Shown here: one piece after another, positions 54,253 through 54,693 of the stretch
How the letters are laid out: every line of letters begins with the position of its first letter
Numbering within the stretch: position 1 is the stretch's first letter
NCBI RefSeq assembly: GCF_003334305.1
Contig: NZ_QOWS01000008.1
Length of the DNA: 64,000 nucleotides
Origin: Escherichia coli
GTDB lineage: Bacteria > Pseudomonadota > Gammaproteobacteria > Enterobacterales > Enterobacteriaceae
Direction: 5' to 3' (one strand)
The notes under the pieces: generated by a model
Databases searched by the model: none
What the model was told of the DNA's origin: nothing
What the model saw: the letters and a program-made list of their open reading frames with translations, nothing else
Program-made: the position numbers and the translations under genes

Positions 54253-54693
54253 ATGAAACGACTTCTGATTCTTACGGCACTCCTGCCGTTTGTCGGCTTT
54301 GCACAGCCCATTAATACTCTGAACAACCCTAACCAGCCGGGGTATCAGATACCCAGCCAGCAGCGGATGCAAACCCAGATGCAGACTCAGCAAATCCAGC
54401 AAAAAGGGATGCTGAATCAGCAACTGAAAACGCAAACTCAGTTGCAACAGCAGCATTTAGAAAACCAGATAAACAATAATTCTCAGCGGGTGTTGCAGTC
54501 ACAGCCGGGGGAGCGAAATCCCGCCCGGCAGCAAATGCTGCCCAACACCAACGGCGGGATGTTAAACAGCAACCGTAATCCGGATAGTTCGTTGAATCAG
54601 CAGCATATGCTGCCGGAGAGGAGAAACGGCGACATGCTGAATCAGCCCAGCACGCCGCAGCCTGACATTCCGTTGAAAACTATTGGGCCGTAA
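54253..54693 (+). CDS. yhhA: YhhA, secreted Gln/Asn-rich low-complexity protein (146 aa)
   Basis: Signal-peptide-like N-terminus [19 protein letters not shown] followed by a Q/N-rich repetitive region ([28 protein letters not shown]). Confidence 0.88.

What the first reader, a model, noticed from the sequence alone, without database searches (positions are those of the whole stretch)
54253..54693. Secreted Gln/Asn-rich low-complexity protein YhhA
A signal peptide is followed by about 120 residues dominated by Q, N, T and M in irregular repeats ([25 protein letters not shown]). This composition is prion- or amyloid-like and unusual for a periplasmic protein. Function is unknown.
Basis: seen in the sequence. 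Interest (0 to 1): 0.2.

Follow-up and report, generated by a model that had tools for sequence, protein, structure and literature searches.

The report
yhhA: secreted glutamine-rich stress protein
This is the already-annotated but uncharacterised E. coli core gene yhhA, whose exported protein really is unusually rich in glutamine and asparagine, but it looks like a conserved long helix with a floppy tail made in stationary phase rather than a prion or amyloid.

Summary
The ORF at 54253-54693 (+) is real and is E. coli yhhA (DUF2756/PF10956, NCBIfam NF007675). It lies between ggt and ugpQ and is present in 5425 of 5426 complete E. coli genomes. The composition claim holds: the mature protein is 22% Q, 14% N and 11% P, with 36 Q/N in the best 80-residue window. 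The "prion/amyloid-like" reading is not supported. The Q-rich core (residues 34-82) is conserved position by position across genera, is under strong purifying selection (dN/dS about 0.07), and is predicted by AlphaFold2 as one long helix. A PAPA-style prion score falls below threshold, and the tail is rich in proline and charged residues. The tail carries conserved [G/H]ML motifs. The family is small and confined to Enterobacteriaceae and Erwiniaceae, and almost always sits convergent with, and overlapping, ugpQ. Literature shows RpoS- and stress-linked induction and high abundance in stationary-phase envelope extracts. The function is still unknown. My best guess is a σS-induced periplasmic protein that folds on binding a partner. 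This is a known gene of modest interest.

The parts
54253..54693 (+). yhhA coding sequence (146 codons plus stop); DUF2756 family
   Evidence: ORF list. Annotated as yhhA in 5425/5426 complete E. coli genomes. Pfam PF10956 E=1e-60. NCBIfam NF007675 equivalog at 265 bits against a cut-off of 136.
54218..54226 (+). Conserved TAAACTTAA block, a putative sigma-S-type -10 element about 30 nt upstream of the ATG (inferred)
   Evidence: Nearly invariant in a 12-genus alignment of the ggt-yhhA spacer. No sigma-70 consensus promoter was found. An RpoS holoenzyme SELEX peak lies in the ggt/yhhA spacer (PMC5493296). The transcription start site has not been verified.
54239..54246 (+). Shine-Dalgarno sequence GAGGAGGA, 6 nt before the ATG
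   Evidence: Read from the sequence. A purine-rich GGAGG-like block is conserved at the same place in 12 genera.
54253..54303 (+). Signal peptide, residues 1-17 ([17 protein letters not shown]), predicted SPase I cleavage before Q18
   Evidence: n/h/c-region anatomy read from the sequence. A17-Q18-P19 invariant across genera. There is no Cys, so it is not a lipoprotein. Found together with periplasmic proteins in envelope extracts. Cleavage is inferred, not shown.
54304..54351 (+). Mature N-terminal Asn/Pro-rich segment, residues 18-33 ([16 protein letters not shown]), conserved, predicted non-helical
   Evidence: NNPN and PGY are nearly invariant. AF2 assigns no secondary structure here.
54352..54498 (+). 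Q-rich conserved core, residues 34-82, predicted single long alpha-helix; begins with the family-wide motif PSQQRMQxQM
   Evidence: AF2 helix H34-82 at pLDDT 74-88, predicted again in the tandem construct. dN/dS 0.067. M43 is invariant even in the 80-110 aa distant homologs. Amphipathic periodicity is not significant, p=0.24.
54499..54690 (+). Disordered Pro/Asn/Gly-rich tail, residues 83-146, evolving faster and variable in length; absent from the short Erwinia-type homologs
   Evidence: pLDDT mostly below 50. dN/dS 0.25. Absent in the 80-110 aa family members.
54403..54417 (+). ML motif 1, K-G-M-L-N (residues 51-55), inside the helix; G52-M53-L54 invariant in Enterobacteriaceae
   Evidence: invariant columns. 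ML dipeptide enrichment p=5e-5.
54529..54567 (+). ML motifs 2 and 3, [13 protein letters not shown] (residues 93-105), a conserved island in the tail
   Evidence: L96, P97, N98, G101, M103 and L104 are at least 90% conserved over 81 orthologs.
54601..54642 (+). ML motifs 4 and 5, QHMLP (117-121) and GDMLN (126-130), conserved islands in the tail
   Evidence: M119 and L120 invariant; H118, G126, M128 and L129 at least 90% conserved.
54667..54690 (+). C-terminal motif IPLKTIGP (residues 139-146), conserved where the full tail is present
   Evidence: Present in roughly 55-60% of 81 orthologs.
54680..54693 (.). 14-bp overlap of the convergent 3' coding ends of yhhA (+) and ugpQ (-)
   Evidence: ORF coordinates. 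The overlap is conserved in 68/78 species, median 4 nt. There is no intrinsic terminator after yhhA on the + strand. The yhhA-ugpQ pair is listed among RNA-seq-defined excludons (PMC12288877).

Best explanation
The locus is the known core gene yhhA. Shown: it encodes a real, translated, abundant protein of the DUF2756 family that is under purifying selection, and its transcript rises with RpoS-dependent and envelope or acid stress regulons. Inferred from sequence: it is exported by Sec and cleaved after Ala17, giving a periplasmic protein of about 129 residues that is not globular. That protein would consist of a short Asn/Pro-rich N-segment, a 49-residue Q-rich segment that forms a long alpha-helix, and a disordered Pro/Asn/Gly-rich tail with four conserved [G/H/Q]-M-L-[N/P] motifs plus a C-terminal IPLKTIGP motif. 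Proposed mechanism (inference, not shown): it has no catalytic fold and works by binding. The helix would be a conditionally folding interaction module, and the repeated ML motifs would be short linear motifs that engage one or more envelope partners during stationary phase or envelope stress. On this view, the high Q/N content reflects a polar helix surface and a flexible tail, not a prion or amyloid domain.
For: Identity. Real protein: detected by MS in Salmonella, listed in the figure of the 15 most abundant proteins of STEC stationary-phase envelope extracts alongside HdeB, Ivy, PsiF and ZraP, and raised under sub-MIC beta-lactam. Regulation: RpoS holoenzyme SELEX site in the ggt/yhhA spacer; assigned to the RpoS regulon; induced on entry to stationary phase, by acid, by a LolCDE inhibitor and across multiple stresses; conserved TAAACTTAA -10-like box with no sigma-70 consensus promoter. 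Architecture: AF2 single helix 34-82 at pLDDT 74-88 with the rest disordered, pTM 0.24. Constraint: dN/dS 0.07 in the helix against 0.25 in the tail; position-specific conservation over 18-81 orthologs; ML motif p=5e-5. No enzyme or known fold.
Against: No partner is known, and none is suggested by gene context: ugpQ is cytoplasmic, and ggt is dispensable for retaining yhhA. The helix has no significant amphipathic stripe. An AF2 tandem-dimer construct gave no confident helix-helix packing (pTM 0.27, helix pLDDT fell to 58-68), so self-association is unsupported. In-frame deletions that remove much of the helix or tail exist in some E. coli isolates, so the protein is dispensable at least in the short term. 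Periplasmic location and signal-peptide cleavage are inferred, not demonstrated. dS is saturated (about 1.2-1.8), so the dN/dS values are approximate.
Confidence: 0.5

Rival explanations
1. One reading: YhhA is a periplasmic prion-like or functional-amyloid protein whose Q/N-rich region drives self-templated aggregation.
For: 36 Q/N in 80 residues exceeds the Michelitsch-Weissman cut-off of 30 and far exceeds the local ORF background maximum of 17. The protein is non-globular. Like curli, it is under sigma-S control.
Against: Position-specific conservation and dN/dS 0.07 in the Q-rich part. Prion domains typically conserve composition rather than sequence (established knowledge). A confident helix is predicted. 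The PAPA-like score of -0.02 is below 0.05 (parameters from memory). The longest Q run is 3, the helix and tail have no aromatics, and the tail is 16% Pro and 17% charged. There is no Pfam hit to curlin repeats or any amyloid family. The protein is recovered as an abundant soluble species. The AF2 tandem model shows no packing.
Confidence: 0.07
2. YhhA is a distant, divergent member of the CpxP/Spy/ZraP group of ATP-independent periplasmic helical chaperones or signalling modulators, and acts as a stress holdase.
For: 3 of 20 diverse family members hit Pfam Metal_resist PF13801, the ZraP family, at E<=1e-3. hhalign repeatedly aligns YhhA 45-73 with the first helix of ZraP. Both are small, stress-induced, helical periplasmic proteins, and both appear in the same envelope extract.
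Against: Profile-profile probability is only 13.5% (A3 vs ZraP alignment) and 4.9% (short forms), over 26-29 columns of Q-rich helix. CpxP and Spy give nothing. Neither P0166 nor P0170 hits PF13801 individually. The profile finds no PDB chain, ZraP, CpxP and Spy structures included, at E<=1. AF2 predicts one helix, not the family's helical hairpin. The match is probably compositional.
Confidence: 0.1
3. The main role of the locus is at the RNA level: yhhA transcription runs antisense into the 3' end of ugpQ (an 'excludon') and modulates ugp operon expression, with the protein being secondary.
For: Convergent arrangement with ugpQ in 79/80 species and in the distant short homologs examined. Coding 3' ends overlap in 68/78 species. 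No terminator follows yhhA. The pair is listed among RNA-seq-defined excludons.
Against: Strong purifying selection on the amino-acid sequence and abundant protein show that the protein itself is selected. The overlap could simply reflect genome compaction. An antisense effect could coexist with a protein function.
Confidence: 0.08
4. YhhA is a type III secretion effector that mimics ATM-kinase substrates in host cells, as proposed in bioRxiv 10.1101/364117 on the basis of a SecretEPDB listing.
For: [quoted passage not shown] Its effector set came from SecretEPDB.
Against: The primary reference could not be traced or read. The protein has a classical cleavable Sec signal with an invariant AQP site. 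It is a core gene in 5425/5426 E. coli genomes, K-12 included, and occurs in environmental and plant-associated genera such as Kosakonia, Phytobacter, Buttiauxella and Erwinia. S/TQ dipeptides are expected in any sequence rich in Q and T. Its presence in culture supernatants can be explained by periplasmic leakage.
Confidence: 0.03
5. The conserved methionines (MxxxM and five ML motifs) make YhhA a periplasmic redox sink or Cu(I)/Ag(I)-binding disordered protein, analogous in principle to PcoE/SilE or to MsrP substrates.
For: Met is about twice the proteome average, and 6 of the 7 mature Met residues are highly conserved. The protein is periplasmic, disordered and stress-induced. It rises under oxidative and multi-stress conditions.
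Against: There are only 7 Met and 2 His. There is no link to copper or silver regulons in the papers read. There are no MxM or HxxM arrays. What is conserved is M followed by L, which points to a recognition motif rather than metal ligation. No family match.
Confidence: 0.06

Closest known systems
DUF2756 (Pfam PF10956) / NCBIfam NF007675 'DUF2756 family protein', the YhhA family itself
   Same: Full-length match at E=1e-60 and 265 bits, with the same ggt-yhhA-ugpQ context across Enterobacteriaceae.
   Different: Nothing differs: this is the type member. The family has no assigned function or structure.
ZraP / CpxP / Spy (Pfam Metal_resist PF13801 and LTXXQ-motif periplasmic helical proteins)
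   Same: Small, Sec-exported, stress-induced, helical periplasmic proteins without enzymatic domains. There are weak, recurrent alignments to the first helix of ZraP.
   Different: Similarity is not significant (hhalign probability <=13.5%). There is no conserved LTXXQ motif, no predicted helical hairpin, and a different regulon (sigma-S rather than Cpx, Bae or Zra).
Eukaryotic Q/N-rich prion domains (e.g. Sup35 N domain)
   Same: Q/N density above the 30-per-80 criterion and low sequence complexity.
   Different: YhhA is conserved by position, predicted helical, and has regularly spaced aliphatic and Met residues. Its helix and tail lack Tyr and Phe, its tail is rich in Pro and charged residues, and it falls below the PAPA threshold.
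Curli subunit CsgA (bacterial functional amyloid, sigma-S dependent, Sec-exported, Q/N-rich repeats)
   Same: Sec signal, linked to sigma-S, enriched in Q and N.
   Different: No curlin repeat match in Pfam, no predicted beta-strands, no csgG/E/F-type export genes nearby, and the protein is found in the soluble envelope fraction.
Phage Rz-like i-spanins
   Same: An N-terminal hydrophobic segment followed by a long polar periplasmic helix. Short homologs give weak PHROG hits (E=4e-4 to 0.01), and one homolog is phage-encoded.
   Different: E. coli YhhA itself has no such hit. It has a cleavable signal rather than a signal anchor, no Rz1-like partner gene and no lysis cassette. The hits are probably compositional.

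Membership tests
DUF2756 / YhhA family (PF10956, NF007675) | Significant full-length match to the family HMMs, above the curated cut-off | tested here: met
   Pfam E=1.1e-60 over model positions 1-105 of 105. NCBIfam 265 bits against a cut-off of 136, profile 1-145 of 145.
DUF2756 / YhhA family (PF10956, NF007675) | Orthologous genomic position between ggt and ugpQ | tested here: met
   78/80 species show ggt (divergent) - yhhA - ugpQ (convergent). The window has the same order.
Q/N-rich prion-like domain | At least 30 Q/N in 80 consecutive residues (Michelitsch-Weissman criterion) | tested here: met
   36 in residues 21-100; 33-40 in 17 orthologs.
Q/N-rich prion-like domain | Prion-propensity score above threshold (PAPA >= 0.05) in a disordered region | tested here: not met
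   PAPA-like maximum -0.018, against 0.10 for the Sup35N control. This was a simplified re-implementation with parameters recalled from memory. The Q-rich part is predicted helical.
Q/N-rich prion-like domain | Composition, rather than primary sequence, is what is conserved | tested here: not met
   Residues 34-82 are 80-100% identical by column over 81 orthologs, with dN/dS 0.067.
Q/N-rich prion-like domain | Forms self-propagating amyloid | not testable with these tools
   Needs ThT, SDD-AGE and C-DAG assays.
CpxP/Spy/ZraP periplasmic chaperone superfamily | Significant sequence or profile similarity to PF13801 or LTXXQ family members | tested here: not met
   E. coli YhhA has no hit. hhalign probability is 13.5% and 4.9% against the ZraP alignment, and <=1.1% against single ZraP, CpxP and Spy sequences. 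Only 3 of 20 divergent members reach E<=1e-3.
CpxP/Spy/ZraP periplasmic chaperone superfamily | Alpha-helical hairpin (cradle) fold | tested here: not met
   AF2 predicts a single uninterrupted helix 34-82 and a disordered tail. Foldseek finds no PDB match.
Type III secretion effector | Non-cleaved N-terminal T3 signal, and occurrence tied to strains that carry a T3SS | tested here: not met
   Classical Sec signal with an invariant AQP site. Present in 5425/5426 E. coli genomes and in many genera without LEE.
Type III secretion effector | T3SS-dependent secretion or translocation shown experimentally | not testable with these tools
   Claimed second-hand via SecretEPDB. The primary paper is not in the library.
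Curli-type functional amyloid (CsgA/CsgB) | Curlin repeat units (Pfam Curlin_rpt) and a beta-rich fold | tested here: not met
   No such Pfam hit for YhhA or any of the 20 family members. AF2 predicts no strands.
Rz-like i-spanin | Significant match to a spanin family, a signal-anchor TMD, and an adjacent or embedded o-spanin in a lysis cassette | tested here: not met
   E. coli YhhA has no PHROG spanin hit at E<=0.1. Short homologs reach only E=4e-4 to 0.065. The context is ggt/ugpQ, not lysis genes.

The most novel reading that the evidence does not exclude
The conserved Q-rich helix plus the multivalent ML motifs could let YhhA form a reversible higher-order assembly in the stationary-phase periplasm: a polar-zipper or coiled-coil-nucleated gel, a condensate, or an amyloid-like scaffold. 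That would make it the first prion-like or phase-separating protein native to the E. coli periplasm and controlled by sigma-S. My evidence weakens this reading (helix conservation, sub-threshold PAPA score, no AF2 self-packing) but cannot exclude it without biophysics.
Probability: 0.05. Interest if true: 0.6.

Novelty: already known. Interest (0 to 1): 0.2.

Why it matters
YhhA is one of the remaining uncharacterised ("y-gene") E. coli proteins. It is abundant in stationary-phase envelope extracts, taxonomically restricted, and unusual in composition. Showing that it is a conserved helix plus a motif-bearing tail, rather than a drifting low-complexity or prion-like region, points experiments toward partner hunting and envelope-stress phenotypes. 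It also flags a database "validated T3SS effector" label that is probably wrong. As a scan finding it is an ordinary annotated gene, so nothing here changes current understanding.

Tried and rejected
1. Coiled-coil or amphipathic helix. The hydrophobic-moment spectrum of residues 34-82 is no better than shuffles (p=0.24), so no coiled-coil claim is made.
2. Self-association. An AF2 head-to-tail tandem of the mature protein with a paired 22-species alignment gave pTM 0.27 and lower helix pLDDT, so there is no support. This single-chain workaround is also a weak test.
3. Link to ZraP/CpxP/Spy. I followed this up from 3/20 Pfam hits with hhalign against single sequences and a 13-member ZraP alignment and with local phmmer. 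The result was not significant. My guess that literal LTxQQ motifs in P0137, P0141 and P0170 caused the hits was wrong for P0170. P0166 does not hit either. The three hitting members were not identified.
4. Rz-like spanin: weak PHROG hits for short homologs only. Rejected as compositional.
5. Defence-system membership: no meaningful PADLOC match.
6. Structured RNA in the locus: no credible Rfam match (best E=0.94).
7. Functional coupling to ggt. Adjacency holds in 78/80 species, but yhhA persists where ggt is absent (L004, L072, L086). I treat it as inherited synteny.
8. Tracing the 'validated EPEC effector' claim. The Deng et al. 2010 and 2012 secretome papers are not in the library, and the preprint has no reference list.
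9. The genome scan with the broad alignment A3 failed because it has no sufficiently conserved stretch. I repeated it with A2.

Full report
OBSERVATION. The ORF at 54253-54693 (+) exists exactly as stated: 146 codons, ATG start, and a GAGGAGGA Shine-Dalgarno sequence 6 nt upstream. The region is 100% identical to many E. coli chromosomes. It is annotated "yhhA: DUF2756 family protein" and lies between ggt and ugpQ. A match is present in 5425 of 5426 complete E. coli genomes, always on the chromosome. The protein matches Pfam DUF2756 (PF10956, E=1e-60) and the NCBIfam equivalog NF007675 (265 bits against a cut-off of 136).

The N-terminus [17 protein letters not shown]|QP has the anatomy of a Sec/SPase I signal peptide, and A17-Q18-P19 are invariant across genera. 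There is no Cys, so it is not a lipoprotein. The mature protein is 22% Q, 14% N, 11% P and 5.5% M, and lacks C, F and W. Its best 80-residue window holds 36 Q/N, against a maximum of 17 among 62 long ORFs in the same 64-kb window. The one correction is that P and L are more abundant overall than T and M.

WHAT IT IS. AlphaFold2 with an 18-genus alignment predicts one long helix, residues 34-82, at pLDDT 74-88. Everything else is low-confidence coil, with pTM 0.24. Neither a family profile nor the model finds anything in the PDB.

The Q-rich part is not a freely drifting low-complexity tract, however. Across 18 genera, residues 17-78 are almost invariant by column. Over 81 orthologs taken from genome loci, NG86 dN/dS against the window sequence is about 0.07 for the helix, 0.25 for the tail and 0.20 for the signal peptide. 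dS is saturated, so these values are approximate.

The tail contains conserved islands: [12 protein letters not shown], QQHML, NGxML and a C-terminal IPLKTIGP. Five of the seven Met residues in the mature protein are followed by Leu, which is non-random (p=5e-5 by shuffling). The helix shows no significant amphipathic periodicity (p=0.24). A head-to-tail tandem AF2 construct with a paired alignment did not produce confident helix-helix packing (pTM 0.27).

FAMILY AND CONTEXT. The family is very small. There are 467 clusters at 90% identity and only 79 representatives at 50% identity among 1.84 billion proteins, many of them fragments. A scan of one genome per species found 157 species. The 80 listed are all Enterobacteriaceae, except one record labelled Chryseobacterium that is probably mislabelled.

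More distant members are 80-110 aa. They keep the signal peptide, the NPSQQRMQxQM motif, the Q-rich helix and QRVLxSQPG, but lack the ML tail. One of these is from Erwinia psidii.

Gene order ggt(-) / yhhA(+) / ugpQ(-) holds in 78 of 80 species. The distant short forms examined are still convergent with a GDPD (ugpQ) gene, even where ggt is replaced by a pirin gene. The coding 3' ends of yhhA and ugpQ overlap in 68 of 78 species, 14 bp in this window, and no intrinsic terminator follows yhhA. A 2025 RNA-seq study lists yhhA-ugpQ among E. coli excludons (PMC12288877).

EXPRESSION AND LITERATURE. No paper assigns a function.
- The ggt/yhhA spacer holds an RpoS-holoenzyme SELEX site (PMC5493296), and yhhA is counted in the RpoS regulon (PMC4057180).
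- It is induced on entry to stationary phase, by acid, by a LolCDE inhibitor together with Rcs and RpoS genes, and across several stresses.
- The protein has been detected by MS in Salmonella.
- It rises under sub-MIC beta-lactam.
- It appears in the figure of the 15 most abundant proteins of stationary-phase STEC envelope extracts, which the authors say are rich in leaked periplasmic proteins.
- Upstream I found no sigma-70 consensus promoter. There is a conserved G-TAAACT-TAA block about 30 nt before the ATG (54218-54226). From my own knowledge of the sigma-S extended -10 consensus (C)TATACTTAA, it resembles that element. No transcription start site was verified.

THE PRION/AMYLOID INTERPRETATION. 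The Q/N count passes the classical cut-off. The other indicators point the other way:
- conservation is positional and purifying selection is strong;
- the Q-rich core is confidently predicted to be helical;
- the longest Q run is 3;
- the helix and tail contain no aromatic residues;
- the helix is 22% aliphatic or Met and 10% charged, and the tail is 16% Pro and 17% charged;
- a simplified PAPA score is -0.02, against a threshold of 0.05 and 0.10 for a Sup35N control.
The PAPA propensities and the Sup35N sequence were recalled from memory, so this is only an approximate check. No curlin or other amyloid family matches. I put this reading at about 7%, and only biophysics can close it.

OTHER READINGS TESTED.
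- T3SS effector. A preprint calls YhhA an experimentally validated EPEC effector. Its list came from SecretEPDB, and the primary secretome papers are not in the library. A cleavable Sec signal, core-gene status in K-12 and commensals, and presence in plant and environmental genera all argue against it.
- ZraP/CpxP/Spy-like chaperone. Three of 20 divergent members hit Pfam Metal_resist, and ZraP is confirmed as PF13801. Profile-profile tests give only 13.5% and 4.9% probability over a 26-29 column stretch of Q-rich helix. CpxP and Spy give nothing. This remains a lead, not a membership.
- Rz-like spanin. Weak hits, for short homologs only.
- Defence systems and Rfam. Nothing.

MECHANISM (best guess, marked as inference). 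The following are shown: a real, abundant, selected protein, induction linked to sigma-S and envelope stress, and no catalytic or known fold. Export and cleavage are inferred from sequence. The proposed mechanism is that the helix is a conditionally folding binding module and the repeated [G/H]ML motifs are short linear motifs that engage envelope partner(s) in stationary phase. An additional antisense effect on ugpQ is possible.

NOVELTY AND SCORE. The gene, the family and the composition are already in the databases. The new elements are descriptive: the helix-plus-tail architecture, the selection pattern, the ML motifs, the conserved overlap with ugpQ, and doubt about the effector label. 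The finding is already known, and I score interest at about 0.2.

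Noticed in passing
L084:4001-4264 (JGI metagenome 3300012995, 109-kb contig): A short DUF2756 homolog (P0176, 87 aa) is encoded inside a phage morphogenesis module, between portal and protease-capsid genes on one side and the large and small terminase genes on the other. 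This looks like a phage 'moron' copy of the YhhA core. It also gives the best, though still weak, Rz-like spanin PHROG hit (E=4e-4).
   Followed up: partly
window 54360-54600 (yhhA codons ~40-115); alignment A1: E. coli isolates carry in-frame length variants of YhhA ranging from 96 to 165 aa. These are deletions or duplications of 10-50 residues within the helix or tail. The deletion junctions are flanked by 3-7 nt direct repeats, for example TCAGCAA for the 10-aa deletion, which suggests slippage in the CAG/CAA-rich DNA. A Salmonella variant (P0083, 167 aa) has a 29-aa internal duplication. How common these variants are in the population was not measured.
   Followed up: partly
window 54680-54693: The convergent genes yhhA and ugpQ overlap by 14 bp at their coding 3' ends, and this overlap is conserved in 68/78 Enterobacteriaceae species. 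The pair is listed as an excludon in PMC12288877.
   Followed up: partly
window 54541-54543 (codon 97, CCC): The membrane-protein overexpression strain C41(DE3) carries a yhhA C290T (Pro97Leu) substitution (PMC4632034). Pro97 sits in the nearly invariant L-P-N motif of the tail. The authors of that paper considered the mutation unimportant.
   Followed up: no
window 54152-54177 (ggt-yhhA intergenic spacer): A GGGG-loop-CCCC inverted repeat (54153-54164) lies just upstream of the ggt ribosome-binding site, on the ggt 5'-leader side. It is kept in 12 genera with a variable loop. It is followed by an invariant TAAGCCTGGT block (54168-54177). This could be a ggt leader hairpin or a regulatory site. 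It remains unexplained.
   Followed up: no
window 52391-54160 (-): The mechanical ORF for ggt extends to a TTG at 54160 (589 aa). The canonical GGT protein (MIKPTF..., 580 aa) starts at the ATG at 54133. The extra nine codons are an artefact of ORF calling.
   Followed up: yes
L040 (CACSKA010000004.1, 'Chryseobacterium sp. 18061 ... Ancestor'): A record labelled Chryseobacterium carries a typical Enterobacteriaceae ggt-yhhA-ugpQ-ugpC locus, 86-90% identical to the E. coli proteins. The assembly is probably mislabelled or swapped from a co-culture study; a sister record, L036, is 'Citrobacter sp. 18056 Ancestor'.
   Followed up: no
L072 (Intestinirhabdus alba) and L004 (Escherichia sp. MOD1-EC7003): These are the two exceptions to the conserved synteny. 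In L072 the yhhA homolog has neither ggt nor ugpQ within 4 kb. In L004 ggt is absent and only the 3' end of ugpQ remains.
   Followed up: no
window ~55250 (inside ugpQ; K-12 coordinate 3585866): The genomic SELEX study lists a peak inside ugpQ, between yhhA and ugpC, in its section on the flagellar sigma factor (PMC5493296). Its significance is unknown.
   Followed up: no
literature (bioRxiv 10.1101/2021.12.15.472736): YhhA was one of only six E. coli proteins captured by a ppApp photoaffinity probe. This is odd for a predicted periplasmic protein, and may reflect capture of the precursor or non-specific binding.
   Followed up: no
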